DNA of 64,000 bases from an uncultured Alphaproteobacteria bacterium (lineage in GTDB: Bacteria > Pseudomonadota > Alphaproteobacteria > HIMB59 > GCA-002718135). The stretch covers positions 15,163 to 79,162 of the forward strand of contig CACFOQ010000002.1 in assembly GCA_902567855.1 (NCBI GenBank), read 5' to 3'. The notes under the pieces were generated by a model. The model was not told where the DNA came from. It saw only the letters and a list, made by a program, of their open reading frames with translations, and did no database searches. Positions 13,166-30,924 of this stretch are shown here, piece after piece (positions within the stretch are counted from its first letter, which is position 1; every line of letters starts with the position of its first letter). Position numbers and translations under genes: made by a program.

Positions 13166-13174
13166 AATGAAAAA

Positions 13175-13731: not shown

Positions 13732-13776
13732 TAAACTAGGATTTTTCTTTAACGATTTTTCAACAAAAATATGTTT

Positions 13777-13942: not shown

Positions 13943-13963
13943 TGATTTTGAAAGTAAGAACTT

Positions 13964-14122
13964 ATGGATAATAAAATAATAGATAAATTTTTAAAATTCA
14001 TAGAAAAAGATGTAGTACCTCCTATAAAAAAAGATTTTACATGGCTGGCCAAGACTATAACTAAGGACTTGGAAAAACTTACAAAAGACAAAAAACAATC
14101 TAAAAAAAAGAATAAATCATAG
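13964..14122 (+). CDS. Small Lys-rich protein (52 aa), below the ORF-track cutoff; paralog of 32209..32391
   Basis: Hand translation: MDNKIIDKFLKFIEKDVVPPIKKDFTWLAKTITKDLEKLTKDKKQSKKKNKS. It aligns along its length with the 60-aa ORF at 32209 (PIKKDFTWL, DLEKLTK.KKQSKKK). Confidence 0.6.
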   Translation: MDNKIIDKFLKFIEKDVVPPIKKDFTWLAKTITKDLEKLTKDKKQSKKKNKS

Positions 14123-14137
14123 GAATAAATAATATCC

Positions 14138-14165
14138 TCAACATTTCTCGTGGTTGGTGGTAGGA
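14138..14165 (+). repeat. 28-nt direct repeat, copy 2 (tcaacatttctcgtggttggtggtagga)
   Basis: See 13915-13942. Confidence 0.8.
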
Positions 14166-14192
14166 GTTTTAAAATGAATCCTCTTGGAAGAA

Positions 14193-14939: not shown

Positions 14940-14952
14940 TTATGGTTATCTT

Positions 14953-16275: not shown

Positions 16276-16278
16276 AAG

Positions 16279-17373: not shown

Positions 17374-17436
17374 AATTATTTAAATTTTAGTTACTCACAA
17401 TTAGGCAAATTTTAAATTGATTTATTCAATATTTTG

Positions 17437-17461
17437 AATATTATTCATTAAAAATGAATAA
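17437..17461 (+). promoter_or_regulatory. Candidate operator in a divergent promoter (aatattattcatta; palindrome ttattcat-taaaa-atgaataa)
   Basis: The 14-mer aatattattcatta recurs exactly at 21611-21624, upstream of the LacI-family gene and binding-protein gene. Confidence 0.3.
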
Positions 17462-17479
17462 AATATAATTTTTCCTAAA

Positions 17480-18448: not shown

Positions 18449-18460
18449 TTTATTAAAAAT

Positions 18461-19432
18461 ATGAAGGGTTTTGATAAAAAATTTAAAGATCTGCCTGATT
18501 ATATTCTTAAGATTACCTATCAGATTTGGGAGGATAAAGATGTTGAGTCAATTAGGGAGTATTATGCAAAGGGAATTCCGGTAAGATCTCCTGATGGAGT
18601 TATCTACGGACCTGATAAAGTAGTAAAAGCAACTTATGCTACGCTTGACGAATTTCCAGATCGGCAACTTCTTGGAGAGGATGTTATTTTTATAGGTAAT
18701 GAAAATGATGGTTATTTATCTTCGCATCGTATTTTAACAAAAGCGACTCATCTAAATGATGGAGTTTACGGAAAAGCCACAGGAATTAAAATATCTTACA
18801 GAGTTATAGCAGATTGTGCTTGTAAAAATAATCAAGTTTATGATGAATGGTTGGTTAGAGATCAGGGAGCAATAGTCAGACAGTTAAATTTAGATCCAAA
18901 AACCTATGCTAAAACATTAATTGATAAGCAAGGCGGTGTAACAAAATGCTCTATACCTTTTAATCAAAATACACCTCTAGATTTAAAATATACCCAGTTA
19001 AGTTTGCCTAAAAATAACACTGGTTATGAATATGCTGAAATATTAAAAACTATATTTCAAAAGGATTTGGATAGTATTGAAAAATTTTATGACAGATCTA
19101 TTAATCAAGAACAACCTAGTGGTCTTAAAGCGTATGGAGTAGACGAGGTTAAATCTTTTTGGTCATCAATTTTTTCTTCCTTTCCTGAAGCGACATTTAA
19201 AATTGAACATGTCAGTTATCTGGATGAGCCTGCAGCATATAGAAAAGCAGCGATAAGATGGTCTTTAAATGGTATCCACTCTGGTCCTGGGTATTTTGGC
19301 AATCCTAGTCAAACAAAAGTTTATGTAATGGGAATTTCTCATGCAGAATTTGGTCCCAGAGGTATAAAAAATGAGTGGGTTTTATTTGATGAAACTGCAA
19401 TATGGAAACAAATTTTAATGAAAACTGGTTAA
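18461..19432 (+). CDS. NTF2-like / SnoaL-like two-domain protein
   Basis: 323 aa. The YQIWEDKDVESIREYYA start and repeated halves resemble ester-cyclase-like proteins. Confidence 0.45.
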   Translation: MKGFDKKFKDLPDYILKITYQIWEDKDVESIREYYAKGIPVRSPDGVIYGPDKVVKATYATLDEFPDRQLLGEDVIFIGNENDGYLSSHRILTKATHLNDGVYGKATGIKISYRVIADCACKNNQVYDEWLVRDQGAIVRQLNLDPKTYAKTLIDKQGGVTKCSIPFNQNTPLDLKYTQLSLPKNNTGYEYAEILKTIFQKDLDSIEKFYDRSINQEQPSGLKAYGVDEVKSFWSSIFSSFPEATFKIEHVSYLDEPAAYRKAAIRWSLNGIHSGPGYFGNPSQTKVYVMGISHAEFGPRGIKNEWVLFDETAIWKQILMKTG

Positions 19433-19445
19433 GGATAGATAAACA

Positions 19446-20576
19446 TTGAATACGAAAATTTTAACAACCCATGTTGGAAGTTTACCACGTTCAAAAACAT
19501 TATCTGAATTTCTTTTTGCTAAAGATAAGGGAGAAAGTTTTAATTTAAATGAGTTTGATGAAGTAGTATCTCAAAATGTGCATGAAATTGTAAAAAAACA
19601 ATTAGATATTGGTATTGATTTTATCAGTGATGGGGAAATGAGTAAAATCAGTTATGCTACCTATGTCAAAGAGAGAATAAATGGCTTTTCTGGAGAAAGT
19701 GAAAGAAGAGCTCCTGCTGATTTGGATGCATTTCCCGAATATAAAGAAAAAATTGCCAAAAGTGGTGGAACGCCTACTTATACCCGTCCCTGTTGTACTG
19801 GAGAGCTGTCACTTAAAAAAAATAGTGACCTTTTAAAAGATATAAATAATTTTACATCTGCTCTTAAATCAAACAACCATAAAAACGGCTTTATGAACTC
19901 TGCTTCACCAGGGGTTATAAATGTTTTTTTACCAAACAAATATTATAAAAATGATGATGAGTATCTTGAAAAACTATCTTCAATAATGTCTGATGAATAT
20001 GAAACAATTACATCAAAAAATTTATATTTACAAATTGATTGTCCTGATTTGGCTTTAGCTAGGCATATGAATTTCAAAGATATGGATGAAAAAAGTTTTT
20101 TACATCGCGCTGAAAAACAAATTGAAGCTCTCAATGCTTCTCTCGCAGCAGTTCCACAGGATCAAATTAGAATTCATATTTGCTGGGGTAATTATGAAGG
20201 GCCTCATACTTTTGATGTTGCTTTGGAAAAAATTTTACCAATTGTTCTAAAAGCTAAAACTAAATACCTGTTAATTGAGTCTTCAAATCCAAGACATGCT
20301 CATGAATGGAAGGTGTTTGAGAATATTAAATTACCAAAAGATAAAGTTATTGTTCCAGGGGTTATTGACTCGACATCAAATTTTGTTGAACATCCTGAAG
20401 TTGTTTCAGATCGACTTAGACAATTTGCAAGTGTTGTTCCAAAAGATCAGATTATGGCAGGTACAGATTGTGGTTTTAGTACATTTGCTGGATTTGGAAA
20501 AGTTGACGAGAAAATTTGTTATGAAAAATTAGGCTCCCTAGTTAAAGGTGCTAAAATAGCCTCAAATATAATTTGA
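19446..20576 (+). CDS. Cobalamin-independent methionine-synthase-family (MetE C-terminal-like) protein
   Basis: 376 aa. HICWGN (His/Cys) and GTDCGFS (Cys) Zn-ligand-like motifs. TTG start. Confidence 0.7.
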   Translation: MNTKILTTHVGSLPRSKTLSEFLFAKDKGESFNLNEFDEVVSQNVHEIVKKQLDIGIDFISDGEMSKISYATYVKERINGFSGESERRAPADLDAFPEYKEKIAKSGGTPTYTRPCCTGELSLKKNSDLLKDINNFTSALKSNNHKNGFMNSASPGVINVFLPNKYYKNDDEYLEKLSSIMSDEYETITSKNLYLQIDCPDLALARHMNFKDMDEKSFLHRAEKQIEALNASLAAVPQDQIRIHICWGNYEGPHTFDVALEKILPIVLKAKTKYLLIESSNPRHAHEWKVFENIKLPKDKVIVPGVIDSTSNFVEHPEVVSDRLRQFASVVPKDQIMAGTDCGFSTFAGFGKVDEKICYEKLGSLVKGAKIASNII

Positions 20577-20589
20577 ATTGTTAATTTTT

Positions 20590-21591
20590 TTATCTAGTTG
20601 TATTTCGATAAATAAATTTGCCCTGTATTACATGATTAACAGGCTCAAATTCTGGATCCTTTATATTATCATCTATAATTTGGGTAACAAGCTTTGACAT
20701 TTGTCTAATAGGTTGTCTAATTGTTGTTAAATTATATGAATACCAATTTGCTGTTGATATGTCATCATATCCAATTACCTCTATTTCTTTTGGGATATTT
20801 AATTTTGTATTTTCTTTAATATAATCAAGGCAACCAAAAGCCATAGTATCGTCAGCACAAAACAATGCTGTAATATTTTTTTTTAAAAGTTTTTTTGCTG
20901 ACTCGAAACCTCCTTCATATGTAAAATTTCCTTTTTCATGAAAAAATTTAATTTTGTTTAAATTTTTAAAATGGTTTTTAAAACCTTTACATCTTTCATT
21001 ACTTACAAAGGATCCAGTTGGTCCTTCAACCATTCCTATATTAATATGTCCATTGGTAATGAAATGTTCTGCCGCTGCTTCTCCCCCATATCTGTGATCA
21101 CAAGCTACAGAACTCAATGTGGGTATTTTCCAATTTCTATTAAAAGCGATAAGTTGAATTTGTTTGGATAAACAATTTTCTACAAATGCATCCGTAGGCT
21201 TTGTAGCCGAAACAATCGCAACTAATCTCTCTTTTAGGTAAGGTTGAATTAAGTTGTTATCAAGTTCTTCACCATCATCGGTTGTAATTAAAAGTATCCT
21301 GTACCCACTCATTCGAAGAGCCTCATGTAATTCAGTTAGGACTTCAGGATAATATCTATTGGTGATATAGGGTAATATTACGCCCACTAGCCCACCATCC
21401 ACTGATGAAGAAAAAGAATGCTGAATAGTTTGATGTTTATAGCCCAATTTTTTAGCAGCTTCGATGACGCGTAATTTTGTGCGATTTGAGATACTGGCTC
21501 CTTTGGTGAAGCACCGAGAGACTGCTGACTGGGATACACCAGCTAATGTGGCCACATTCTGGGATGTTGGATTCTTTAATTTAGTTTTCAT
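20590..21591 (-). CDS. LacI-family transcriptional regulator
   Basis: N-terminal HTH NVATLAGVSQSAVSRCF plus a periplasmic-binding-protein-like effector domain. Confidence 0.9.
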   Translation of the reverse strand: MKTKLKNPTSQNVATLAGVSQSAVSRCFTKGASISNRTKLRVIEAAKKLGYKHQTIQHSFSSSVDGGLVGVILPYITNRYYPEVLTELHEALRMSGYRILLITTDDGEELDNNLIQPYLKERLVAIVSATKPTDAFVENCLSKQIQLIAFNRNWKIPTLSSVACDHRYGGEAAAEHFITNGHINIGMVEGPTGSFVSNERCKGFKNHFKNLNKIKFFHEKGNFTYEGGFESAKKLLKKNITALFCADDTMAFGCLDYIKENTKLNIPKEIEVIGYDDISTANWYSYNLTTIRQPIRQMSKLVTQIIDDNIKDPEFEPVNHVIQGKFIYRNTTR

Positions 21592-21610
21592 TTATGCCTT
21601 TATCCACCGA

Positions 21611-21624
21611 AATATTATTCATTA
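21611..21624 (+). promoter_or_regulatory. Candidate operator (aatattattcatta) in the lacI / binding-protein intergenic region
   Basis: Exact 14-mer shared with 17437-17450. A nearby inverted repeat attgcat ... atgcaat lies at about 21625-21653. Confidence 0.3.
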
Positions 21625-21731
21625 CATTGCATATTTATTCAAAACAATGCAATATATTTATTATAAATATTTATAATATTAATTCTCTTAATATAACAAT
21701 TTATTTTAAGGGTAATTAATAAGGAGGAAAA

Positions 21732-22973
21732 ATGTTATTTAAAAAACTAATATTAGTTGGATTTATTTCCCTATTTTTCAGCTCATCTTTGTATGCAGCT
21801 GATTGTGGACCGAATGGGCAATCAATCCGAATTCTAGCAAGTGATTTTCCAGCAATTCACGCAATAGCAAATTCTGCTGAAAGTAATTGTGCAGGATCTG
21901 CTTCTGAATTCAATCGAAATCATACTACCGAAGCACGTCAAATAATGAATGCTGCTCAAACACCAAATCCAGCAGAGTATACTTCAGTTATTGTAGCTAA
22001 CTCTACCCTAGTTCAATTAATGAACGATGGACTTGTTAGACCATTAGATGATTTAGTTGAAAAATATGGTGGTCACTTAAAATCTAACCAACTGATAACT
22101 ATTGATGGAAAAATAATGGCAATAGCGTTTATGGCAAATTCTCAGCACATGTATTATAGAACAGATATTTTAGAAAAATCTGGGGTTGATGGAATACCAG
22201 CAACTTATGATGAAGTAATATCTGCTGCTGAAAAGATACGTGCAGCTGGTATCATGGAGCATCCACTTGTAATGAATCTCAAAGTCGGATGGAATGTTGG
22301 TGAAGTATTTAACACTATATACCTAGCACATGGTGGAGAATTCTTTAAGCCTGGTAGTGCTGAAGCATCTATTAATAATGCCAAAGGTGTTGCTGCTCTA
22401 GAAACAATGAAAGCTCTTGTAGAGTATGCTCACCCTGATCATTTAACGCAGGCATCTGATGATACGCAAGGATTATGGGAAGCTGGTCAAGCGGCAATTG
22501 GCTTTATGTGGGGTTCTCGTGGAGGAGTTATACTAGATAATGAAGGTTCTTCAGCTGAAGTGACTTCAAATACTGTTTTATCTGCAGCTCCAACTGTTAC
22601 TGGTGGCTCAATACCAGGAGCAACTCTATGGTGGGATGGAATAACTATAGCTACTAACGTGTCTGACAGTGAAGCAGAAGCAACGTTTGCAGCACTTGTA
22701 AGTGGTATGACTTCAGAAATGGTTGCTGCTAATAATGATGATGCAATTTGGTTAATTGATGGTTTTAAACCTGGTCCAGCTGCAGCAGGAGTTTCTGCAA
22801 CTGCTCAAGGCGGTGCTAAATCTTACCCGATGTTTGCTCAAATGGGATTATTGCACAATGCATTAGGTGCAGAGCTAGTTGATTTTTTAAAGGGATCTGA
22901 GAGCGCTGAACAAGCACTTAGTGATGTAGAGGCTGTTTACGAAACAGCTGCTAAAGACGCAGGTTATCTGTAG
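21732..22973 (+). CDS. ABC transporter extracellular solute-binding protein (family 1 / CUT1-like)
   Basis: Signal peptide, 413 aa, followed by MalF/MalG-type permeases. Confidence 0.75.
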   Translation: MLFKKLILVGFISLFFSSSLYAADCGPNGQSIRILASDFPAIHAIANSAESNCAGSASEFNRNHTTEARQIMNAAQTPNPAEYTSVIVANSTLVQLMNDGLVRPLDDLVEKYGGHLKSNQLITIDGKIMAIAFMANSQHMYYRTDILEKSGVDGIPATYDEVISAAEKIRAAGIMEHPLVMNLKVGWNVGEVFNTIYLAHGGEFFKPGSAEASINNAKGVAALETMKALVEYAHPDHLTQASDDTQGLWEAGQAAIGFMWGSRGGVILDNEGSSAEVTSNTVLSAAPTVTGGSIPGATLWWDGITIATNVSDSEAEATFAALVSGMTSEMVAANNDDAIWLIDGFKPGPAAAGVSATAQGGAKSYPMFAQMGLLHNALGAELVDFLKGSESAEQALSDVEAVYETAAKDAGYL

Positions 22974-22995
22974 TCAATATAAATAAATCAGTAAA

Positions 22996-23023
22996 AAGGG
23001 GTTTTCAAATTTGAAAACCCCTT
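22996..23023 (+). terminator. Perfect 14+14 palindrome after the binding-protein gene (attenuator or stabiliser hairpin)
   Basis: aaggggttttcaaa/tttgaaaacccctt. Only a weak T-tract follows. Confidence 0.45.
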
Positions 23024-23053
23024 GTATCTTTCTATGTAATTTAAAATCGCATA

Positions 23054-24088
23054 ATGAAGCACAGCACATTCTTATTATTTTCTCTTCCTTCATTAAGTGT
23101 AATGTTTTTATTTATTGCAATACCTATAGTTTCTGTTTTTATTCAATCTCTGCATATTGAGCATAAACAAGTAATAATTGTTACAGAAAATTGTGATCCT
23201 TTTGGATGTGAGACAACAACAGCTGTGGATACTGAAGCTTCCGCAAAGTTAAAAGAAAAAGCACCTCTTGGTAAATTTAATGGATTTAAAACATATTCAA
23301 ACAGAATGCATTTTGCATTTGATGAAGTAGGAGAAGCTTGGAAGAGCTCGGATAGTTTTACAGTTTTTACTAAAAAATTATATAATTACCCCCTATATAG
23401 AGCGCTCAGTTTCACTCTTACTTACACCTTCGTAGTTACTCCTTTTGTCTTATTTCTTGGTTTTTTAGTTGCCGTTGGAGTTAATAATCTTCCAAAGATG
23501 TTTAAAGGTCCAACAATTTTTGCATCTCTTCTTCCAATGATAGTTACACCTCTTGTTGGTTCATTGATACTTTTCTGGATGGTTGACGGTGATGGTGTGA
23601 TTGGGGCTACACTCCAAAAAATATTTAATGATAATTCTCTTAGCTTGAAAGCATCACCTGTGCTTACCTGGATTATGTTGATGGTATACGGTATTTGGCA
23701 TTTGATGCCTTTTAGTTTTATTGTTTTTTATGCAGGTCTTCAAACGGTTCCTCAAGAAACAATAGAGGCGGCAACAATAGATGGCGCATCAAAATTTCAA
23801 AGAATACGCCACGTTGTTATTCCTCATTTAATGCCACTTGCTATTTTCATCACTTTAATACTTTTGATGGATAATTTTAGAGTTTTTGAACCAATCATAG
23901 GTTTTAGAGCAGAAGCGCACGCCACCTCAATATCGTGGTTAATATGGAATCATTTGCGAGAAAGTGCTTACCCTCTCTATAACGCCGCAGGTGCTACATC
24001 TATGGTTACTATTTTTGGTGTAGCAATTTTACTCTTGCCCGTACTAATTCGAACATGGCGAGATTTTAAAGAAAAAAATAAAGGTTAG
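23054..24088 (+). CDS. ABC transporter permease (MalF-like)
   Basis: EAA loop EAATIDGASKFQRIRHVVIP. Large periplasmic loop after TM1. Confidence 0.85.
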   Translation: MKHSTFLLFSLPSLSVMFLFIAIPIVSVFIQSLHIEHKQVIIVTENCDPFGCETTTAVDTEASAKLKEKAPLGKFNGFKTYSNRMHFAFDEVGEAWKSSDSFTVFTKKLYNYPLYRALSFTLTYTFVVTPFVLFLGFLVAVGVNNLPKMFKGPTIFASLLPMIVTPLVGSLILFWMVDGDGVIGATLQKIFNDNSLSLKASPVLTWIMLMVYGIWHLMPFSFIVFYAGLQTVPQETIEAATIDGASKFQRIRHVVIPHLMPLAIFITLILLMDNFRVFEPIIGFRAEAHATSISWLIWNHLRESAYPLYNAAGATSMVTIFGVAILLLPVLIRTWRDFKEKNKG

Positions 24089-24094
24089 GAATTT

Positions 24095-24976
24095 GTGAAT
24101 ACAAAAATTGAAAATAAATTAACCCCAGTTCGTATTATTGCTTTTATATTTGTGGCTCTGTGGTTGGTTATTGCTATGTTTCCTTTTATTTGGACATTGT
24201 GGGGATCTTTCAAAGTACAAGCTGATTTTTTTTCAAAAGCTGATTGGTCAAATGCAATATTTGGCTTTCATACTGAAAAACAAACAGGCGGTTTTTTTAC
24301 TATGGATGGATATTATGGCTCTTGGATTGAAGAAGAATTTTGGCGTGCCGTTATTAATACAAGCATAGTAGTATTTTTTACAGTTTTAATTTCTCTTACT
24401 TTTGGAACTTTAGGTGGTTATGCTCTTGCAAGGTCTACTTATCGTTATGCCTTCTGGATTTTAATGGCAGGTCTGATCTTTCGTGCGATGCCTCATATGA
24501 CTTTGATTTCAGGATATCTTCAACCTTTTTTTGCATGGAATGTTTGGGGAATTTTGCCTACAACAATAATTGTGCTTGTTGCAATTAACCAACCTTTTAC
24601 TCTGTGGATGCTACATTCATTTTTTTTAAACATACCAAAAGATTTAGATGAAAGCGCTATGTGCGATGGTTGTAATAGATTTCAAGCATTTAGATATGTG
24701 ATCATTCCTATAATGTGGCCAGGGGTAATCACTACTGGATTATTTAGTTTCCTTCTTGCTTACAATGATTTTACAGTTACATCCATGTTGCTTTCAGATG
24801 AAAATGAAACAATGATTCCAGCAATTGCAAGTTTTCTAGGTACTGTCCAAGAAGAAGGTAAAGTAATGTATGCTGTAGCAGCCGTTGTTTCAGCAACTGC
24901 TCCATTATTCTTTTTTGTACTGTTTTTTCAAAGACAGATTGTTAGTGGATTAACAGCTGGAGCAGTAAAAGGTTAA
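24095..24976 (+). CDS. ABC transporter permease (MalG-like)
   Basis: EAA loop ESAMCDGCNRFQAFRYVIIP. GTG start. Confidence 0.85.
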   Translation: MNTKIENKLTPVRIIAFIFVALWLVIAMFPFIWTLWGSFKVQADFFSKADWSNAIFGFHTEKQTGGFFTMDGYYGSWIEEEFWRAVINTSIVVFFTVLISLTFGTLGGYALARSTYRYAFWILMAGLIFRAMPHMTLISGYLQPFFAWNVWGILPTTIIVLVAINQPFTLWMLHSFFLNIPKDLDESAMCDGCNRFQAFRYVIIPIMWPGVITTGLFSFLLAYNDFTVTSMLLSDENETMIPAIASFLGTVQEEGKVMYAVAAVVSATAPLFFFVLFFQRQIVSGLTAGAVKG

Positions 24977-24981
24977 AAGTA

Positions 24982-26055
24982 ATGAAATCAGAGCAATTAA
25001 AAAAATACTTTGAAGATTATCAAATAGCTACTCAAAATTTTAATAAAAATTCAATAAATAATTCTCTAACTAAATACTTCTCAGAACATTCTGTGTTTCA
25101 ATTCTGTTATCCCTTTGGAACGTTTAATGGATTAGATAATTTTTTATCTAATTGTATCAATCCTCTTTTAGAAAGTATTCCAGATCTTGAAAGAAGAGAT
25201 ATGATTGTTATGGCAGGCACAACACCTGAAGATAAACACTGGGTAGGTACTATGGGTAATTATATGGGAACATTTTTAAAATCATTTTTAGATATTCCAC
25301 CAACTGGTAATTTAGTTCATATGCGTTATCATGAGTTTTTCCAAATTGAAAATAATCAGATTATAGAAATGCAATCAATATGGGATCTACCTGAACTGAT
25401 GATCCAGGCCAATGCATGGCCAATGAGTCCTCAGCTAGGATCTTTTTTATGTACACCATCTCCGATGACCGGAGACGGTTTAAAAATAAAAGGCGATGGA
25501 TCAAAAAATTTTGATCTTGTGATTAATATGCTTCAAGACATGGTTTTACACCCTAGTAATCCAGATCCACAAGTTATGAATTTAGATAAGTATTGGCACC
25601 CCAGATTTAATTGGTATGGACCAGCTGGAATTGGAACTGGAAGAGGTATAGCAGGATTTCGCCATTGGCATCAAATACCCTTCTTACGTGCAATGCCGGA
25701 TAGAAAGGGAGGTTCATCAAATGATAGCTTAAAAAATGAGGGATTGAAGGATATGCTAACTCATTGGATATATGAAGGAGATTATGTCTGTGAAACTGGT
25801 TGGCCAAATATGCGATCTACAATATCACAAGATGGATGGATGGGTATTGCTCCTTCAAACCAGATTATAGAAATGCGGAGTTTAGATTTTTGGAGAGTTG
25901 AAAATAATCTTATAAGGGAGAATTGGGTTTTAGTAGATCTTCTGGATGTTTATCAGCAAATAGGCGTTAATGTTTTTGATAGAATAAAAGAATTTAACAA
26001 AGCAAGAAATGTTGGTGATATTAACATTTCTCAAGGACTTGATTTAATTAAATAA
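24982..26055 (+). CDS. NTF2-like / SnoaL-like two-domain protein; paralog of 16279..17373
   Basis: Block-wise similarity to 16279..17373, as listed for that feature. Confidence 0.5.
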   Translation: MKSEQLKKYFEDYQIATQNFNKNSINNSLTKYFSEHSVFQFCYPFGTFNGLDNFLSNCINPLLESIPDLERRDMIVMAGTTPEDKHWVGTMGNYMGTFLKSFLDIPPTGNLVHMRYHEFFQIENNQIIEMQSIWDLPELMIQANAWPMSPQLGSFLCTPSPMTGDGLKIKGDGSKNFDLVINMLQDMVLHPSNPDPQVMNLDKYWHPRFNWYGPAGIGTGRGIAGFRHWHQIPFLRAMPDRKGGSSNDSLKNEGLKDMLTHWIYEGDYVCETGWPNMRSTISQDGWMGIAPSNQIIEMRSLDFWRVENNLIRENWVLVDLLDVYQQIGVNVFDRIKEFNKARNVGDINISQGLDLIK

Positions 26056-26072
26056 ATATTGATATAGAAGAA

Positions 26073-26840
26073 ATGTATTTACAAAAATTTGAAGTCAAAA
26101 ACAAAACTGCATTAGTAACGGGAGCAGGAAAAGGTTTGGGAAAAGCATGTGCTATTGCTTTGGCTGAGGCAGGAGCCAATCTCATTATATTAAGTCGTAC
26201 CAAAACTGACTTAACAAAAGTTGAAAAACAAATAATAAAATTAAATAGAAAATGTCGATCAATCGTATGTGATGTAACAAATTATGAAGATGTAAAAAAA
26301 ACTTTTTCCTCCATATCTAAGTTAGATATTCTTGTTAATAATGCTGGAACTAATAGACCTGAATATTTTACAAAAATTAAAAAAAAAGATATGGATGATG
26401 TTGTTGATTTGAATATTAAAGCCGCATTTCATATTGCACAATTGGCTTCAAAAATAATGCTAAGATCCAAAAATCGAAAGAAAGTTGGGGCTTCCATAAT
26501 AAATATGTCTTCTCAATTAGGAAAAGTAGGAGCTCCACGCCGAAGTGTTTACAATATGACGAAATTTGGAATTGAAGGATTAACCAAAGGAATGGCTGTG
26601 GATTTAGCTAAACATAATATTCGTGTCAATTCAGTTTGTCCCACATTTGTTAAAACGCCAATGGTTGAAAAGTTTTTTAAAGATAAAGAATTTATGAAAT
26701 CTGTATTAAAAAACATTCCTTTAGGCAGAATAGGTTCAGAAAGCGATATTGCTACAGCTGTAGTGTATCTAGCCTCCAATGCATCATCAATGATTACTGG
26801 CTCATCATTAGTAATAGATGGTGGTTGGACAGCAAAATAA
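26073..26840 (+). CDS. Short-chain dehydrogenase/reductase (classical SDR)
   Basis: TGAGKGLG cofactor motif, NNAG, catalytic YNMTK. Confidence 0.9.
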   Translation: MYLQKFEVKNKTALVTGAGKGLGKACAIALAEAGANLIILSRTKTDLTKVEKQIIKLNRKCRSIVCDVTNYEDVKKTFSSISKLDILVNNAGTNRPEYFTKIKKKDMDDVVDLNIKAAFHIAQLASKIMLRSKNRKKVGASIINMSSQLGKVGAPRRSVYNMTKFGIEGLTKGMAVDLAKHNIRVNSVCPTFVKTPMVEKFFKDKEFMKSVLKNIPLGRIGSESDIATAVVYLASNASSMITGSSLVIDGGWTAK

Positions 26841-26851
26841 TTAAAATTTCT

Positions 26852-26872
26852 CGGCGCACATACGGCGCACTT
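26852..26872 (+). repeat. Barcode 2R: cggcgcacat-a-cggcgcactt
   Basis: Identical to 2L. CACAT begins 85 nt before the fragment 3 core. Starts 12 nt after the SDR stop. Confidence 0.85.
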
Positions 26873-26941
26873 AGACACCCGGTATTTACATTTTCACGTT
26901 TAATTTTTCCTAGAAACCTTACACTTTGTTTTTAATCAGCA

Positions 26942-27002
26942 CGCTTGGAAAGCGTGTGTAGTAGCAATACTACCGAGGGTTCGAATCCCTCTCTCTCCGC
27001 CA
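26942..27002 (+). repeat. tRNA-Ser 3' fragment 3 (61 nt; variable-arm allele B tgtagta-gcaa-tactac)
   Basis: Differs from the intact gene only by two compensatory pairs in the variable arm. Preceded by ..tttaatcagca. Confidence 0.95.
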
Positions 27003-27047
27003 AAAACTTAATTTTTTCTTTAACGATTTTTCTGTAATTTTAAATCT

Positions 27048-27068
27048 GGTCTCACATAGGTCTCATTT
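27048..27068 (+). repeat. Barcode 3L: ggtctcacat-a-ggtctcattt
   Basis: CACAT begins 51 nt after the fragment 3 CCA. Confidence 0.8.
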
Positions 27069-27090
27069 TAAGAATAAATAAAATATTATT

Positions 27091-27285
27091 TTAATACAAG
27101 GAAATACCTCCTCGATGATTAATAGTAATAGTTCCTGATAGATATTCTGCAAATGCTTCTTTTACACCAAATAGTTCGTTTACTATTGGAAAAGAAAATG
27201 CGTTTAAGACTATACCTATTGCAAAAACAGCAAGAATTAGTTTAACCGATTTTTCTAATTTTATTTCATAAGTTACTTTTTTCAT
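27091..27285 (-). CDS. Small single-TM protein (64 aa)
   Basis: ATG preceded by aaggat. One central hydrophobic helix (LILAVFAIGIVLNAFSFPIV). Confidence 0.5.
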   Translation of the reverse strand: MKKVTYEIKLEKSVKLILAVFAIGIVLNAFSFPIVNELFGVKEAFAEYLSGTITINHRGGISLY

Positions 27286-27352
27286 TTTTAATCCTTTGTT
27301 TAAATTATTTAAAGATTACAATATTCTTTGTATTGTTTTTGTAAATTAATTT

Positions 27353-27373
27353 GGTCTTACTTTGGTCTCACTA
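27353..27373 (+). repeat. Barcode 3R: ggtcttactt-t-ggtctcacta
   Basis: Decayed copy of 3L. It sits 84 nt before the fragment 4 core. Confidence 0.7.
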
Positions 27374-27441
27374 CCTAAGTTAAAAACTATAAATTAACCC
27401 TAAATAATCTTTGTTTTTTGTAGAAATTTATAAAATCAGCA

Positions 27442-27502
27442 CGCTTGGAAAGCGTGTATAGTGGCAACACTATCGAGGGTTCGAATCCCTCTCTCTCCGC
27501 CA
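27442..27502 (+). repeat. tRNA-Ser 3' fragment 4 (61 nt; allele A)
   Basis: Identical to 12249-12309. Preceded by ..ataaaatcagca. Confidence 0.95.
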
Positions 27503-27547
27503 TAAATTAAGATTTTCCTTTAACAATTTTTCAGCAAAAATATGTTT

Positions 27548-27568
27548 CGACACACATACGGCGCACTT
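27548..27568 (+). repeat. Barcode 4L: cgacacacat-a-cggcgcactt
   Basis: CACAT begins 51 nt after the fragment 4 CCA. The first unit is decayed. Confidence 0.8.
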
Positions 27569-27617
27569 TGCAACCTATTTTTTATCTACATTTTATATAG
27601 TTGGTGGTAATATTATC

Positions 27618-28061
27618 TTGATGCAAAAGTTTATCAATATAGCCATTTTATTAATGTTGTTTTTTTTTGCAAATAATGTTTTAGGAAAGACTTTAGTGGC
27701 TAAATATTATTGTATAGCAAATGATTTAGTTGGAGTTGAATACTATCCGAATAAAAAATCTTCAGTATTTAATTTAAACAATGAAAATAATCATTTTAAA
27801 CTTAAAATATTTAAAAAAGAAAATGAATATTTTTTTGAGACCGGACTAGCAACCGATTTATGGTTATGGGATTCTATGAAAGGATCATCTGATCCTTATG
27901 GTCCATGGACTACTCTGAATGGATATTTAAAACTTTTTAAAGCAAGTGATAAATTAAGATTTGTTTTATTGCAAGAAACAATAGGAAAAGGTAATAATGA
28001 AGTAGATCGTTTGGCTCATTCGAATGTATATTTGTATGACGGAACATGTCATAGAAATTAA
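27618..28061 (+). CDS. Secreted hypothetical protein (147 aa)
   Basis: Signal peptide (..FFFANNVLGK). Cys near each end. ATG at 27621. Its stop abuts the next start. Confidence 0.55.
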   Translation: MMQKFINIAILLMLFFFANNVLGKTLVAKYYCIANDLVGVEYYPNKKSSVFNLNNENNHFKLKIFKKENEYFFETGLATDLWLWDSMKGSSDPYGPWTTLNGYLKLFKASDKLRFVLLQETIGKGNNEVDRLAHSNVYLYDGTCHRN

Positions 28062-29288
28062 ATGACCAATATAGTTAAATTAAAATACGATTATTTAATG
28101 CATTTAGAATATGTTGGTGAAGTTAAGGATGGCTTGCCCCATGGACAAGGTACATTCAATATATATGGAGAAATATTATTTAAAGAATTAATTAAAAAAC
28201 TAAGAAACAAGGAATCAAAGGAAGGTGAGTACAAACATTTATCTAGCCACACACTTACCTCCGAATATCTTCAGCCACTTATAGAATTTTCTTTAAAAGA
28301 AAGTGAGCCAAAAGATTTTGACCAAGATGTTTTGGAAATGTCTATTAGGGGTAACTTTAAAGAAGGTCTTTGGGACGGACGCTTTTTCAGGATTCATTAT
28401 GATGTTATAAATGGAACAGAAAGTGAAGAAGGTGAAGAAGAAGAAGATTTTGAGATACATGCTGAAGGAATGATTTTTGAAAATAATATTATGGTTGAAG
28501 GAAGATTAGATTATGATGAAGGACATTATTTTGGTGAAGTTTTATATAATGAATTGTTTAGTCACGCTTTTAGAAAACAAATTAAAAATTCTATAGAAGG
28601 CAAAAAAATAGATTCTAAAAAACTCCCTGGAACTCTTTATTATCCTCATAATGAAGGATCATATCATTATCATGATCCGAATAACGAAAAATGGATTAGG
28701 GGCACTTGGGTAAAAGGCGAATTAACTAAAATTGACTACATACATGAATGCAAAGTTTTTCCAAACAATGATATTTATGAAGGAGGTACCAAAATAGATA
28801 ATATCAAAATATCTAAAGATTGGAGAATCAAGATAGATAGTTCTGGGATACCCGATGGTTATGGACAGATGGTTTCGGGAAGAAAGCACGATCAAGATGA
28901 TGATGGTTCTCAAATATATTATGGAATGTGGAAAGATGGCATAATGCATGGAAAAGGAACACTGATTGAAAAGGGAGAGTATACAAATATTGGTGATTTA
29001 CGAAACTACGATACACATCCTTTTGAAGCAAAAAAATATGTTGGCGAGATGAAAAATGGAAAAGCTAACGGTGAGGGAGTGCTGAGTTATATTAGAATAA
29101 AGAAAGACGTGATACCAAAAACTTTTTGGCAAAGTATCAATGACCAAGATTTTCCCCCGGAAGAAACTAAATTTTATGAGGGATCTTTCAAAGATAATTT
29201 ATTTCATGGACAAGGAACAATTTTTTATCATGATGGAACATCAAAGAAAGGTGAGTGGGTTAACGGAAAATTTAAAGAAAATAATTAA
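28062..29288 (+). CDS. MORN-repeat protein (408 aa)
   Basis: Repeated Y.G....G..HG.G motifs (YVGEVKDGLPHGQGTF, YYGMWKDGIMHGKGTL, YVGEMKNGKANGEGVL, YEGSFKDNLFHGQGTI). No signal peptide. Confidence 0.75.
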   Translation: MTNIVKLKYDYLMHLEYVGEVKDGLPHGQGTFNIYGEILFKELIKKLRNKESKEGEYKHLSSHTLTSEYLQPLIEFSLKESEPKDFDQDVLEMSIRGNFKEGLWDGRFFRIHYDVINGTESEEGEEEEDFEIHAEGMIFENNIMVEGRLDYDEGHYFGEVLYNELFSHAFRKQIKNSIEGKKIDSKKLPGTLYYPHNEGSYHYHDPNNEKWIRGTWVKGELTKIDYIHECKVFPNNDIYEGGTKIDNIKISKDWRIKIDSSGIPDGYGQMVSGRKHDQDDDGSQIYYGMWKDGIMHGKGTLIEKGEYTNIGDLRNYDTHPFEAKKYVGEMKNGKANGEGVLSYIRIKKDVIPKTFWQSINDQDFPPEETKFYEGSFKDNLFHGQGTIFYHDGTSKKGEWVNGKFKENN

Positions 29289-29295
29289 AATTTCT

Positions 29296-29316
29296 CGGCG
29301 CACATACGCCCTACTT
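29296..29316 (+). repeat. Barcode 4R: cggcgcacat-a-cgccctactt
   Basis: 85 nt before the fragment 5 core. The second unit is decayed. Starts 8 nt after the MORN gene stop. Confidence 0.8.
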
Positions 29317-29385
29317 ACACACCCGATATTTAAATTTTAACGTTTAATTTTTCCTAGAAACCCTACACTTTGTTTTTAATCAGCA

Positions 29386-29446
29386 CGCTTGGAAAGCGTG
29401 TGTAGTAGCAATACTACCGAGGGTTCGAATCCCTCTCTCTCCGCCA
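29386..29446 (+). repeat. tRNA-Ser 3' fragment 5 (61 nt; allele B)
   Basis: Identical to fragment 3. Preceded by ..tttaatcagca. Confidence 0.95.
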
Positions 29447-29492
29447 TAAATTTACAACTATAAAATACAAAATTAGGTTTTAATAGAGTTTT

Positions 29493-29513
29493 TGGCACAC
29501 ATATGGCACACTT
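29493..29513 (+). repeat. Barcode 5L: tggcacacat-a-tggcacactt
   Basis: CACAT begins 52 nt after the fragment 5 CCA, even though the intervening sequence is unrelated to the other left arms. Confidence 0.85.
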
Positions 29514-29571
29514 GCTAAAAAATAAATTATTATAGTTTTTTTATGGACTGTTTATTAGCTTATATTTTTAT

Positions 29572-30768
29572 ATGAATAAAATTATCTTATTTTTAATTTT
29601 GATAATTCCTTGTATTTCAAATGCTCAAATGAATATTTATGAAAATAATGCAAACTATATTATTTCAGGAGTTTTAGATTATTCTTATTGCACCGATACT
29701 ACTAGTTTTGATGAAGATAAAAGAAAAGATTATGAGTTATATGAAATATTTAACGCAAACTTTAAACAAATAAATCAAAATTATTTTTTAAAAGATAATC
29801 AAGTAACAAATGAAAATGTACTTAAAAAAATTGATGAAATTATAAGTTTAAAAAATAATAATTTGTTTATTTTTTATTTTGCGGGCCACGGTGTTTTAAA
29901 AGATGGAGAGCCTGGAATGTTAATGAGTGATTGCTCTGTAATTAAAAAATCAGAACTTAAAAATATTTTAAAGAAAAAAAACAATAAACAAAAAATTATA
30001 TTATTAGGAGATTTTTGTTATTCAGGACTATTAGCAGAAATTGCTAGAGAACTAAATTCAGAAGGATTAGATATTAACGCAATAACTAGCGCTAGTTCAA
30101 ACGTCTCAACTGGTTCATGGAGTTATACGCAAGCTTTAATCGACTCTTTTTCAGGAAGGCAAATTGTTGATAAAAACAATGATGGTCTAATAACTTTTTT
30201 TGATATGATTAATGAAGTTGAAGAAGTAATGTTAAATAGAGAAAGACAAAAATCTGACTACTTTATAACTGCAGATTTAAAGAATGTAATAATTTCTAAA
30301 TCAAAAATAAAAGATAAATCTAATATAAATTATGGTTCATGGTATTGTTCTAATGAAGGTATAACTAGAGTTATAGATATAAAGAATTCTATCTATGAAG
30401 TAGAATATTATAACTACAATAAATATGAATATAAAAAATTAAGTGAAAAAGATTTATATTCAATCCACGAAACAGATTTTGAAAAAGGCGATTTAATATC
30501 GGTTGTCTGGGAAAATGATAATTATGAAGCAAAAATAAAAAAGATCGATAGAATTTTTTATAAAATCTCTTATGTAGGTTGGGGTGATGAGTGGGATGAG
30601 TGGATTACAAAAAATAGAATCACTGGAAATGAAAAAGTAGAAATCAAATCTGATAACGTTTGGTATCCTGGAGAAATCATTCAATATAAGAATAATAAAT
30701 ATTTTATTAGATATAAAGATTATGATTTTTGTTTTGATGAATGGGTTGATAATTCTAGAATAAGATAA
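29572..30768 (+). CDS. Secreted caspase-like (peptidase C14-type His/Cys dyad) protein with two C-terminal Tudor/Agenet-like domains
   Basis: Signal peptide. FYFAGHG (His) and LLGDFCYSG (Cys) about 46 aa apart. C-terminal repeats GDLISVVWENDNYEAKIKKI..YKISYVGWGDEWDEWI and VEIKSDNVWYPGEIIQYKNNKYFIRYKDYDFCFDEWV. Confidence 0.65.
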   Translation: MNKIILFLILIIPCISNAQMNIYENNANYIISGVLDYSYCTDTTSFDEDKRKDYELYEIFNANFKQINQNYFLKDNQVTNENVLKKIDEIISLKNNNLFIFYFAGHGVLKDGEPGMLMSDCSVIKKSELKNILKKKNNKQKIILLGDFCYSGLLAEIARELNSEGLDINAITSASSNVSTGSWSYTQALIDSFSGRQIVDKNNDGLITFFDMINEVEEVMLNRERQKSDYFITADLKNVIISKSKIKDKSNINYGSWYCSNEGITRVIDIKNSIYEVEYYNYNKYEYKKLSEKDLYSIHETDFEKGDLISVVWENDNYEAKIKKIDRIFYKISYVGWGDEWDEWITKNRITGNEKVEIKSDNVWYPGEIIQYKNNKYFIRYKDYDFCFDEWVDNSRIR

Positions 30769-30774
30769 TTTTCT

Positions 30775-30795
30775 TGGCACACATATGGCACACTA
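30775..30795 (+). repeat. Barcode 5R: tggcacacat-a-tggcacacta
   Basis: 84 nt before the fragment 6 core. Starts 7 nt after the stop codon. Confidence 0.85.
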
Positions 30796-30863
30796 TCCAG
30801 ATCAATAATTAATATTTTATTCTAAATAACCTTTGTAATCCCTTAACTCTCTAAAAATCAGCA

Positions 30864-30924
30864 CGCTTGGAAAGCGTGTAAAGTAGCAATACTTTCGAGG
30901 GTTCGAATCCCTCTCTCTCCGCCA
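30864..30924 (+). repeat. tRNA-Ser 3' fragment 6, terminal (61 nt; allele C taaagta-gcaa-tacttt)
   Basis: Unique allele, again with compensatory pairs. No conserved box or barcode follows it. Candidate displaced original 3' half. Confidence 0.95.

What the first reader, a model, noticed from the sequence alone, without database searches (positions are those of the whole stretch)
26834..29446. Cassettes 2 and 4 share the same att scaffold (about 95% identical 169-nt right ends, similar left arms) but carry unrelated cargo
Seen in the sequence: 26834-27002 and 29278-29446 align end to end with about 8 mismatches by hand count. The aligned block runs from the last sense codons and stop codon, through aaaatttct, the barcode cggcgcac, the 69-nt arm and the allele-B fragment. 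The left arms (13732-13797 versus 27503-27568) are also clearly homologous (..gattttt/cctttaacg/aatttttca.caaaaatatgtttcg..). Cargo is a 13-kb catabolic island in one and a MORN/secreted-protein pair in the other. Inference: the att scaffold is modular and is reused with different payloads. The similarity begins immediately at the cargo stop codon, which argues for a defined cargo-loading boundary.
Basis: seen in the sequence. Interest (0 to 1): 0.6.

Follow-up and report, generated by a model that had tools for sequence, protein, structure and literature searches.

The report
Integrase-less island cassettes sharing att arms
Two neighbouring gene cassettes in a SAR11 (Pelagibacter) genome carry nearly identical end sequences because both are integrase-less leftovers of one family of tRNA-Ser-targeting integrating elements, whose short paired repeats are most likely the binding sites of a lambda-like integrase.

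Summary
In detail: 26834-27002 and 29278-29446 align without gaps at 161/169 positions. The left arms are 89% identical and the cargo is unrelated.

The window is SAR11. An intact tRNA-Ser(GGA) at 12220-12309 is followed by five cassettes. Each is bounded by a 72-nt copy of tRNA positions ~17-90, a ~45-nt left arm, a ~60-nt right arm and an 8-mer repeated twice at 11-bp spacing (the "barcode"). The barcode is the same at both ends of a cassette.

In related SAR11 contigs the same kind of repeat pair lies 14-15 nt upstream of the start codon of a tyrosine integrase and recurs at the other end of the element. This integrase has a lambda-Int-like N-terminal arm-binding fold. Two otherwise 99.4%-identical elements differ only in the barcode plus the arm-binding domain.

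The "scaffold" is therefore attL/attR of one arm-site specificity group (CGGCGCAC). Cassettes 2 and 4 have lost the integrase. The variable-arm part of each tRNA fragment follows the right-hand neighbour, so crossover lies in the anticodon stem-loop.

A dedicated cargo-loading boundary is not supported. This is a known kind of system (tandem tRNA islands) with an interesting variant, coded arm sites.

The parts
12135..12153 (+). GATCAC-type repeat pair (TTGATCAC ATT CTGATCAC), ending 66 nt upstream of the intact tRNA. It is probably the right-end arm site of an older, fixed integrase element.
   Evidence: Motif scan. The same repeat plus the TTGTGATAAATCATAGG arm precedes tRNA-Ser in L011, L018, L072, L094, L221 and L222. 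In L011 it matches the left repeat in front of an integrase remnant.
12220..12309 (+). Intact tRNA-Ser(GGA). This is the attL-side copy, regenerated by the first cassette.
   Evidence: ARAGORN; Rfam tRNA, 54.4 bits.
12310..13731 (+). Cassette 1. It has the same arm family as c2 and c4 but a different repeat (GGTTGCAC x2 at 12355-12373 and 13581-13599). Its cargo is three small membrane or secreted ORFs.
13732..13776 (+). Cassette 2 left arm (P'-arm spacer, 45 nt).
   Evidence: 89% identical to the c1 and c4 left arms.
13777..13795 (+). Cassette 2 left repeat pair, CGGCGCAC ATA CGGCGCAC (proposed P' arm-type integrase sites).
   Evidence: It is identical to the right-end copy.
13796..26833 (.). 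Cassette 2 cargo: a 13-kb transport and catabolism-like island. There is no integrase.
   Evidence: Pfam. tblastn with the integrase family finds nothing here. The cargo is 98-99.7% identical in L094, L069, L028, L096, L093 and L051.
26834..26851 (+). An 18-nt lead-in shared only by c2 and c4 (AAAATAATTAAAATTTCT). It contains the stop codon of the SDR gene.
26852..26870 (+). Cassette 2 right repeat pair, CGGCGCAC ATA CGGCGCAC (proposed P arm-type sites).
26871..26930 (+). Cassette 2 right arm (60 nt).
   Evidence: 92% identical to the c4 right arm and 80% to that of c1.
26931..27002 (+). tRNA-Ser fragment (about positions 17-90). The proposed core is the anticodon stem-loop CACGC TTGGAAA GCGTG at 26940-26956. 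From the variable arm onward the sequence belongs historically to the right-hand neighbour.
27003..27502 (+). Cassette 3 (0.5 kb; GGTCTCAC-type repeats at 27048-27066 and 27353-27371; one 64-aa ORF).
27503..27547 (+). Cassette 4 left arm.
27548..27566 (+). Cassette 4 left repeat pair, degenerate (CGACACAC ATA CGGCGCAC).
27618..29288 (+). Cassette 4 cargo: a 147-aa secreted-type protein and a 408-aa MORN-repeat protein.
   Evidence: A MORN homologue (81% identity) lies in L069 in a cassette with a CGGCGCAC-type left end but a GTCTCAC-type right end.
29278..29295 (+). The shared 18-nt lead-in. It contains the last three codons and the stop codon of the MORN gene, using a different TAA and frame from c2.
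29296..29314 (+). Cassette 4 right repeat pair, with a decayed second unit (CGGCGCAC ATA CGCCCTAC).
29315..29374 (+). Cassette 4 right arm.
29375..29446 (+). tRNA-Ser fragment after cassette 4 (core at 29384-29400).
29447..30924 (+). Cassette 5 (TGGCACAC x2 at 29493-29511 and 30775-30793). Its cargo is a caspase-like plus Agenet/Tudor protein. It ends with the last tRNA fragment, next to the conserved flank gene at 30999-31292.

Best explanation
The window holds a tandem array of five integrated elements at the SAR11 tRNA-Ser(GGA) gene. Cassettes 2 and 4 are integrase-less derivatives of the same specificity group of one element family.

The family uses a lambda-type (heterobivalent) tyrosine integrase. 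The core site is the anticodon stem-loop of the tRNA (CACGC-TTGGAAA-GCGTG). The 'barcodes' are pairs of arm-type sites bound by the integrase's N-terminal arm-binding domain. One pair lies about 90 nt 3' of the core, directly in front of the integrase start codon in complete elements. The other pair ends about 70 nt 5' of the core.

Integration of a circle carrying [repeat - right arm - tRNA(17-90) - left arm - repeat] into the tRNA gives exactly the observed attL and attR. Repeated integration gives the array.

The 'shared scaffold' of c2 and c4 is thus the P and P' arms of the CGGCGCAC group. The cargo differs because the integrase gene and other content were deleted and replaced between the arms.

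What is shown: the anatomy, its recurrence across SAR11, the linkage of repeat pairs to the integrase gene, and the modular co-swap of repeat and arm-binding domain.

What is inferred: that the integrase binds the repeats; that crossover is in the anticodon loop; and that integrase-less cassettes can still be moved, either in trans by a matching integrase or by homologous recombination through the about 190-bp conserved junctions.
For: (1) Array anatomy. There is one intact tRNA and five 3' copies. The left repeat starts about 45 nt after CCA. The right repeat ends about 60 nt before the fragment. This spacing holds even when the arm sequences differ.

(2) Repeat pairing. The two ends of a cassette match within 2 mismatches or fewer (of 19) in 16 of 34 cassettes. 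For non-cognate pairs the figure is 70 of 1090.

(3) Link to the integrase. In related contigs a repeat pair of the same form lies 14-15 nt upstream of the ATG of an integrase gene: L049, L011, L218, L219, L220, L221, L222, L224, L225, L226 and L227-L236. The same repeat recurs at the far end of the element in L049 and L011.

(4) Nature of the protein.
- Pfam finds Int_N plus Phage_integrase.
- The catalytic residues R, HxxR, W and Y are present in P0092 and P0098.
- The AF2 model gives three beta strands plus a helix for residues 1-45, at pLDDT about 90.
- The best Foldseek PDB hits are full-length lambda integrase, 1z1g and 1z1b, at E = 3e-4.

(5) Co-swap. L225 and L227 are 99.4% identical from about codon 45 of the integrase gene onward. 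They are only about 65-70% identical over the repeat pair and the arm-binding domain (GATCACAC versus CGGCACAC).

(6) Repeat and N-terminus go together. Twelve distinct repeat types go with twelve distinct N-terminal sequences. Three GATCAC-type cases share Leu7-Arg8 (two read from DNA, one inferred from the upstream ORF extension of P0004). The GCAAC types share IVKR.

(7) Decay series. L218 carries the c2/c4-type repeat (CGACGCAC) followed by a 42-aa in-frame internal-deletion remnant of the integrase.

(8) Crossover position. The same c2 right arm is followed by different variable-arm alleles in different genomes. The allele goes with the left arm on its right in 31 of 55 pairs, and with the right arm on its left in only 10 of 44, close to background.
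Against: - No integrase or integrase remnant exists in the window, and 93 of the 96 tRNA-Ser loci from genome assemblies also lack one. Present-day site-specific mobility of c2 and c4 is therefore unproven.
- The repeats in c4 and in several relatives are decaying. This argues against ongoing selection for integrase binding there.
- Two 'empty' cassettes with a single repeat between the arms (L010, L090) show that recombination between the two repeat copies does occur.
- The c2 left arm differs at about 9 of 45 positions between the window and L094/L069, while the repeat and cargo are about 99% identical. This indicates homologous exchange next to the repeat.
- The link between repeat and N-terminus is confounded by shared ancestry, except in the L225/L227 case.
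- No circular form was found, and no match exists in IMG/VR.
Confidence: 0.78

Rival explanations
1. The repeat pair is itself the recombination site, as in an integron-like or 'landing pad' model. An empty scaffold (tRNA fragment - left arm - repeat - right arm - tRNA fragment) would receive circular cargo by crossover inside the repeat. This would leave one repeat copy at each cargo end and define a cargo-loading boundary.
For: - Empty 194-nt units with a single repeat exist in L010 and L090.
- The same repeat type occurs with unrelated cargo, as in c2 versus c4.
- The MORN cargo has the same left scaffold but a different right scaffold in L069.
- The mosaic breakpoint between the c2 left arm and its cargo lies at the repeat.
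Against: - The repeats are direct repeats with an 11-bp period. They are not the inverted binding sites that flank an overlap region, which is what tyrosine or serine recombinase cores need.
- No recombinase travels with the cargo.
- This model does not explain why every cassette carries its own tRNA fragment and arms at fixed spacing.
- In complete elements the left repeat sits in front of the integrase gene and is swapped together with the arm-binding domain.
- Empty units are explained more simply by deletion between two 19-22-bp direct repeats.
Confidence: 0.08
2. No site-specific recombination operates any more. The cassettes are fossils, and their shuffling between genomes is driven only by RecA-type homologous recombination, with the about 190-bp conserved junctions (tRNA fragment plus arms) acting as portable homology. 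On this view the c2/c4 similarity reflects gene conversion among junctions.
For: - Nearly all loci lack an integrase.
- Repeats are decayed in c4, L005, L013 and L040.
- L051 and L069 have mismatched left and right repeats.
- Arms are mosaic around identical cargo.
- The arms of c1, c2 and c4 are 80-92% alike although the c1 repeat differs, as homogenisation would give.
- High recombination in SAR11 is established knowledge (my own knowledge; not tested here).
Against: - This model does not explain the origin of the structure.
- It does not explain the perfect four-fold repeat identity in c1, c2 and c5.
- It does not explain the fixed spacing.
- Catalytically complete integrases with matching repeats do exist in SAR11 metagenomes.
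- It is best seen as a complement acting after integration, not as an alternative origin.
Confidence: 0.3
3. A local segmental duplication within this array copied the c2 right end to the c4 right end. The similarity would then be a one-off accident of this genome.
For: The 95% identity includes an 18-nt lead-in that is seen only in this pair.
Against: - The left ends are also related (89%) but are not part of any contiguous duplicated block.
- The same arm-and-repeat family is found in many other SAR11 genomes and metagenome contigs, with other cargo.
- The c2 right end exists in other genomes without c4 next to it.
Confidence: 0.07

Closest known systems
Lambda-type (heterobivalent) tyrosine integrase att sites: core-type sites plus arm-type sites, as in lambda, L5, HP1 and P2-family phages and in tRNA-integrating genomic islands
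   Same: - The core lies in a tRNA gene, at the anticodon stem-loop inverted repeat with a 7-nt loop.
- Paired direct repeats with about one helical turn of spacing lie on both arms, tens of nucleotides from the core.
- The integrase has an N-terminal three-strand-plus-helix domain, a helical core-binding domain and an R-H-R-Y catalytic domain.
- The P' arm sites overlap the 5' region of the integrase gene. This is known for KplE1 IntS (listed, PMC2951348; the detail is from my own knowledge).
   Different: - Many specificity variants of the arm site (at least 12 repeat types) share one core and partly the same arm spacers at a single locus.
- Most copies have no integrase at all.
- Binding has not been tested.
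Tycheposons of Prochlorococcus (Hackl et al., bioRxiv 10.1101/2020.12.28.424599) and tycheposon-like elements reported in Pelagibacter (Biller et al. 2025, PMC11876622)
   Same: - They occur in streamlined marine bacteria.
- They are cargo-carrying elements with tyrosine recombinases that integrate at island-associated tRNA genes.
- They form tandem arrays separated by partial tRNAs, with degraded integrases and extra partial tRNAs as remnants.
   Different: - No replication module (primase or helicase) was seen here.
- The relationship of this integrase family to the tycheposon clade was not tested.
- That paper does not mention arm sites or direct repeats.
- Here the great majority of units are integrase-free.
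CIMEs (cis-mobilizable elements): att-flanked, recombinase-less derivatives formed by tandem accretion with ICEs or IMEs (reviews PMC5812530 and PMC5704250, listed; the concept is from my own knowledge)
   Same: - Cassettes are bounded by functional-looking attL and attR but lack integration genes.
- They lie in tandem at the same att site as related integrase-bearing elements.
- Their mobility is presumed to depend on an integrase supplied by a relative.
   Different: - There is no conjugation context.
- Units are very small (0.2-13 kb).
- Diversified arm sites would restrict which integrase can act on which cassette.
SAR11 flexible genomic islands with partial tRNA repeats (Molina-Pardines et al. 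2025, PMC11796062)
   Same: That study notes partial repeats of the bordering tRNA inside four SAR11 islands, interprets them as 'insertion of a gene cassette', and finds almost no integrases in the islands.
   Different: The passages retrieved from that paper contain no description of arms, paired repeats, or the integrase family that matches them.
Integron gene cassettes (attC/attI, IntI)
   Same: Arrays of promoter-poor, mostly single-function cassettes share recombination-site ends. Cargo ORFs run right up to, or into, the site.
   Different: - attC sites are imperfect inverted repeats recombined as folded single strands by IntI. Here the repeats are direct.
- Here every unit carries a tRNA fragment.
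- The associated recombinase is lambda-like, with an arm-binding domain.

Membership tests
Lambda-type tyrosine-integrase integrative element (attL/attR with core plus arm-type sites) | The element encodes a tyrosine recombinase with the catalytic R...HxxR...Y residues. | tested here: not met
   There is no integrase or remnant anywhere in the window. Related elements at the same tRNA do have one: P0092 and P0098 carry RRGEL, HRLRH, GGW and RYTH, and match PF00589 at E = 1e-22. The window cassettes are therefore derivatives, not complete members.
Lambda-type tyrosine-integrase integrative element (attL/attR with core plus arm-type sites) | The integrase has a separate N-terminal arm-binding domain. 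| tested here: met
   This was tested in the related integrases. The AF2 model has strands at 2-7, 10-17 and 20-26 and a helix at 29-45, with pLDDT about 90. The best PDB fold matches are full-length lambda Int, 1z1g and 1z1b. No sequence-level Pfam or PDB hit covers residues 1-55.
Lambda-type tyrosine-integrase integrative element (attL/attR with core plus arm-type sites) | Repeated arm-type sites of one consensus lie on both arms, at a distance from the core. | tested here: met
   The same 8-mer pair occurs at both ends of c1, c2, c3 and c5, and in degenerate form in c4. Spacing is fixed. Cognate ends match far more often than non-cognate ends.
Lambda-type tyrosine-integrase integrative element (attL/attR with core plus arm-type sites) | The core is an inverted repeat around a 6-8-bp overlap, where strand exchange occurs. 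| tested here: inconclusive
   The anticodon stem-loop CACGC/TTGGAAA/GCGTG lies in the only segment common to all junction types, tRNA positions about 20-45. Allele linkage places the crossover 5' of the variable arm. The exact cleavage sites cannot be obtained from sequence.
Lambda-type tyrosine-integrase integrative element (attL/attR with core plus arm-type sites) | The integrase physically binds the arm sites. | not testable with these tools
   Only indirect support is available: the repeat pair and the arm-binding domain are exchanged together in L225 versus L227.
Tycheposon | The integrase belongs to the tycheposon tyrosine-recombinase clade. | not tested
Tycheposon | A replication module (primase, helicase or polymerase) lies next to the integration module. 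| tested here: not met
   None was found in the window cassettes, nor among the genes called next to the integrases in L219-L236. The DEAD-box helicase in L223 was not examined.
Integron gene cassette | An attC site is present: imperfect inverted repeats (R''-L''...L'-R') able to fold as a hairpin. | tested here: not met
   The conserved end motifs are direct repeats in the same orientation at both ends. No IntI-type gene is present.
CIME-like (att-flanked, recombinase-less, cis/trans-mobilizable unit) | The unit is flanked by attL and attR of a known integrase family and lacks its own recombination genes. | tested here: met
   L218 shows the same repeat type with a deleted integrase gene.
CIME-like (att-flanked, recombinase-less, cis/trans-mobilizable unit) | The unit is excised or integrated by an integrase supplied by a related element. 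| not testable with these tools
   Only indirect evidence exists: c2 occupies different array positions in different genomes at 98-99.7% identity.

The most novel reading that the evidence does not exclude
SAR11 may run a distributed, 'addressed' cassette system. Rare master elements would encode lambda-like integrases whose arm-binding domain and arm sites diversify together as a swappable module. The abundant integrase-less cargo cassettes would keep a matching address at both ends, so only the integrase with the same code could excise or insert them. This would allow orthogonal, cassette-by-cassette mobilisation within a tandem array that shares one tRNA core. The recurrent 102-107-aa truncated integrases (arm-binding domain plus the first helices, with conserved C-termini) could be retained as stand-alone arm-site binders or regulators rather than being dead genes.
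Probability: 0.25. Interest if true: 0.75.

Novelty: new variant of a known kind. Interest (0 to 1): 0.5.

Why it matters
SAR11 is the most abundant bacterial group in the ocean. Its flexible gene pool is large, yet its genomic islands are described as almost free of mobile-element genes (PMC11796062).

This analysis gives a concrete mechanism for one island. It is an array of att-flanked cassettes left by a lambda-like integrase family. It also identifies sequence signatures that allow such cassettes to be delimited and counted in any SAR11 genome or metagenome:
- the 72-nt tRNA fragment;
- the two arms;
- the coded repeat pairs.

The co-varying pairs of repeat and arm-binding domain form a natural series of specificity variants. 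This makes two questions directly testable: how integrase arm-site specificity evolves, and whether integrase-less cargo is mobilised in trans.

Tried and rejected
- Phage attP. Three IMG/VR pattern scans for the SAR11 tRNA-Ser anticodon and variable arm found nothing. A looser scan returned only unrelated tRNA-Ser genes of other phages. A protein-based scan of IMG/VR for the integrase N-terminus found no relatives.
- Integrase in the window or in the 96 genome loci. A first regex (H..R[HK][ST]) and phmmer with a Xer protein found none. The regex would have missed this family, whose motif is HRLRHQ/E. I therefore repeated the search with tblastn using family members. It found only remnants in L011, L049 and L218, and nothing in the window.
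- The repeat as a sigma-70 promoter (-35-like TTGCAC). It fits c1 only by eye and does not fit c2. Dropped.
- The repeat as a DnaA-box-like site (..CACA). Only the GATCAC type resembles one. Dropped.
- Known RNA families in the arms. Rfam finds only the tRNA.
- Sequence-level PDB search with the N-terminal profile. No hits.
- One of the two hits of the metagenome junction scan (L217) was a simple CA-rich repeat and is irrelevant.
- My automatic repeat caller missed degenerate copies. I replaced it with a fixed-position comparison.

Full report
**Observation.** Upstream of 26835/29279 the sequences are unrelated. The left arms (13732-13776 and 27503-27547) are 89% identical.

Pfam confirms that the cargo is unrelated.
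- c2 is a 13-kb island. It carries a LacI-type regulator, an ABC solute-binding protein with two permeases, a histidinol-dehydrogenase-like enzyme, three SnoaL-domain proteins, a cupin, a MetE-like protein, an SDR and a NAD-binding protein.
- c4 carries a small secreted-type protein and a MORN-repeat protein.

Of the aligned bases, 97 lie outside tRNA-derived sequence.

**Context in the window.** The window is about 30% GC. It holds one intact tRNA-Ser(GGA) at 12220-12309, followed by five further copies of its 3' part. These delimit five cassettes: c1 12310-13731, c2 13732-27002, c3 27003-27502, c4 27503-29446 and c5 29447-30924.

Every cassette has the same layout:
- a tRNA 3' end;
- a left arm of about 45 nt;
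- an 8-mer repeated twice with an 11-bp period;
- the cargo;
- the same repeat pair in the same orientation;
- a right arm of about 60 nt;
- 72 nt of tRNA.

The repeat is GGTTGCAC in c1, CGGCGCAC in c2, GGTCTCAC in c3, a degenerate CGGCGCAC in c4 and TGGCACAC in c5. A scan of the whole window finds this motif only at cassette ends and once upstream of the tRNA. Shuffled sequence gives about one match.

The arms of c1, c2 and c4 belong to one family: right arms are 80-92% identical and left arms 87-89%. Those of c3 and c5 differ. What c2 and c4 share specifically is therefore the repeat type, a closer right arm and an 18-nt lead-in.

**Organism and recurrence.** An exact scan of one genome per species found the junction sequence in 96 stretches, nearly all from SAR11 single-cell or metagenome-assembled genomes.

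Across 34 cassettes in these loci and the window, the two ends of a cassette carry the same 19-mer within 2 mismatches or fewer in 16 cases. For non-cognate pairs the figure is 70 of 1090. The repeats sit at fixed distances from the tRNA sequence even when the arms differ.

The c2 cargo is present at 98-99.7% identity in six other genomes. It is the first cassette after the tRNA in L094, the second in L069 and the window, and has different right-hand neighbours in L093, L028 and L051.

**What the repeats are.** No integrase is present in the window or in almost any of the 96 loci. However, a metagenome scan for two CGGCGCAC-type repeats about 180 nt apart found contig L218. There, a c2-like right end and core are followed by CGACGCAC x2, and 14 nt later by an ATG opening a 42-aa ORF. 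That ORF is an in-frame fusion of the first 14 and last 28 residues of an integrase.

L049 has TGCGTCAC x2 in front of a 106-aa N-terminal integrase remnant. The same repeat occurs, three times, at the far end of that element. L011 shows the same arrangement for TGATCACA.

Homologue searches and contig look-ups gave further members at tRNA-Ser(GGA) and at tRNA-Gln(UUG). In all of them a repeat pair lies 14-15 nt upstream of the start codon.

The protein has the following features:
- Pfam Int_N (the helical core-binding domain) and Phage_integrase domains;
- the catalytic residues R, HxxR, W and Y;
- a confidently predicted N-terminal three-strand-plus-helix domain.

The best structural matches of the model are full-length lambda integrase, followed by Tn1549 integrase.

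**Coupling of repeat and arm-binding domain.** Twelve repeat types were paired with twelve different N-terminal sequences.

The clearest case is L225 versus L227. From about codon 45 of the integrase gene onward, including the downstream RraA-like cargo, the two contigs are 99.4% identical. The repeat pair and the first about 45 codons are only about 65-70% identical (GATCACAC versus CGGCACAC). The repeat and the arm-binding domain are thus exchanged as one module. This is what is expected if the domain reads the repeat. I therefore interpret the repeats as arm-type integrase sites, and the 'scaffold' as the P and P' arms.

**Crossover.** All junction types share only tRNA positions about 20-45, which contain the anticodon stem-loop. 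The same c2 right arm is followed by variable-arm allele B in the window, allele A in L093 and L051, and a third allele in L028. Overall the allele goes with the left arm to its right rather than with the right arm to its left.

The 3' two-thirds of each 'fragment' therefore belongs historically to the next cassette. Strand exchange must lie 5' of the variable arm, most likely in the anticodon loop, as in many tRNA-targeting integrases. That comparison rests on established knowledge, and the exact cleavage sites are inferred.

**The 'cargo-loading boundary'.** The 18-nt lead-in is specific to c2 and c4. Other CGGCGCAC-type ends share only a T-rich TTYCT. The SDR gene of c2 and the MORN gene of c4 stop at different TAA triplets, in different frames, within it.

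I read this as cargo genes packed against the outer limit of the att arm in a genome with minimal spacers, not as a loading mechanism. Evidence that content between the arms changes by ordinary deletion and recombination includes:
- the internally deleted integrase in L218;
- a 1072-nt segment of c2 (13871-14917), flanked by a 25-nt direct repeat and absent from L069 and L094;
- mismatched left and right repeats in L051 and L069;
- two 'empty' 194-nt units in L010 and L090.

**Rivals.** An integron-like model, with crossover in the repeat, explains the empty units. It does not explain the direct-repeat form, the per-cassette tRNA fragments, or the linkage to the integrase.

Purely homologous shuffling through the about 190-bp junctions is likely to contribute today. 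The evidence is mosaic arms and decayed repeats. It cannot account for the origin of the structure.

A local duplication is excluded, because the family is spread across SAR11.

**Comparison with known systems.** The architecture is that of lambda-type integrative elements in tandem at a tRNA. The closest ecological analogue is the tycheposon arrays of Prochlorococcus. Tyrosine-recombinase elements near tRNAs have been reported in Pelagibacter, and partial tRNA repeats inside SAR11 islands have been noted.

The integrase-less units correspond to the CIME concept.

The parts that seem new are the many co-diversified pairs of arm site and arm-binding domain sharing one core, and the dominance of integrase-free cassettes that keep these sites. 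The tycheposon preprint contains no occurrence of 'arm' or 'direct repeat'. In the other papers I consulted I found no description of this, but I did not search them for it specifically.

**Verdict.**
- The general interpretation, a reusable att scaffold, is right.
- The specific mechanistic inference, a loading boundary with the allele-B fragment as part of the scaffold, is not.

This is a new variant of a known kind, of moderate interest.

Noticed in passing
window 12220-12309 (also L072 3865-3954): The 5' half of the intact tRNA-Ser(GGA), GGAGAGGTGGCCGAGTGGTTGAAGGCGCC, differs from the usual SAR11 5' half, GGAGAGATGTGAGAGCGGTTTAATCAGCA. That usual version is the one present in all five fragments. 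Combined with the 3' half, it gives a C28-U42 mismatch in the anticodon stem, so the gene looks chimeric.
   Followed up: partly
window 12135-12219; L011, L018, L072, L094, L221, L222: The 'native' upstream region of tRNA-Ser carries a GATCAC-type repeat pair and a conserved arm (TTGTGATAAATCATAGG). In L011 this is the right end of an element whose left end has TGATCACA x2 and an integrase remnant. The tRNA promoter region in many SAR11 genomes may therefore be a fixed element end.
   Followed up: partly
L049 3001-3560 and 594-860; L221 9060-9230; L222 7840-8000; L226; L236: Integrase-bearing elements at tRNA-Ser leave a pseudo-tRNA on their left: an intact 5' half joined to a shared, decayed about 79-nt 'Y' segment. 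They regenerate the intact tRNA on their right from a full 5' half that they carry themselves. This is the opposite polarity to the window cassettes.
   Followed up: partly
P0001-P0005, P0008, P0010 (106-115 aa); P0020, P0022, P0023 (102-116 aa): Many truncated integrase ORFs end at the same two positions (...YLSQFGRGS or ...DLYLNP). They have conserved residues 27-100 but highly variable residues 3-26, which form the DNA-facing sheet. They could be inherited deletions with swapped N-termini, or retained stand-alone arm-site binders.
   Followed up: no
L010 6615-6809; L090 (minus strand) 6351-6545: These are 'empty' cassettes: exactly 194 nt from one tRNA copy to the next, with a left arm, a single repeat pair and a right arm, and no cargo.
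   Followed up: partly
window 13846-13870 and 14918-14942: A 25-nt direct repeat, encoding the N-terminus MTSEKTN of the minus-strand NAD-binding gene, flanks a 1072-nt segment. That segment is absent from the otherwise 99%-identical c2 copies in L069 and L094.
   Followed up: partly
L219 4830-4980; L220 1242-1384; L223 9747-9895: The same integrase family, with its own repeat pairs, also targets tRNA-Gln(UUG). The tRNA is either left intact (L220, L223) or replaced by a pseudo-3' half (L219).
   Followed up: partly
L233 160-392: A GGCTAC-type right repeat, right arm and core are followed by a GGCTACAC left repeat and an integrase gene. The code is the same on both sides, as expected for an attP or circle junction, or for a tandem pair. 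L234 has the same integrase after a different left neighbour.
   Followed up: no
window 29572-30768: The cassette 5 cargo is a secreted-type protein with a weak caspase (Peptidase_C14) match and a C-terminal Agenet/Tudor-like domain. This is an unusual combination for a bacterium.
   Followed up: no
window junctions c1|c2, c2|c3, c3|c4, c4|c5: Adjacent cassettes never carry the same repeat type. c2 and c4 share a type but are separated by c3. This could be chance, or it could reflect instability of same-code neighbours.
   Followed up: no
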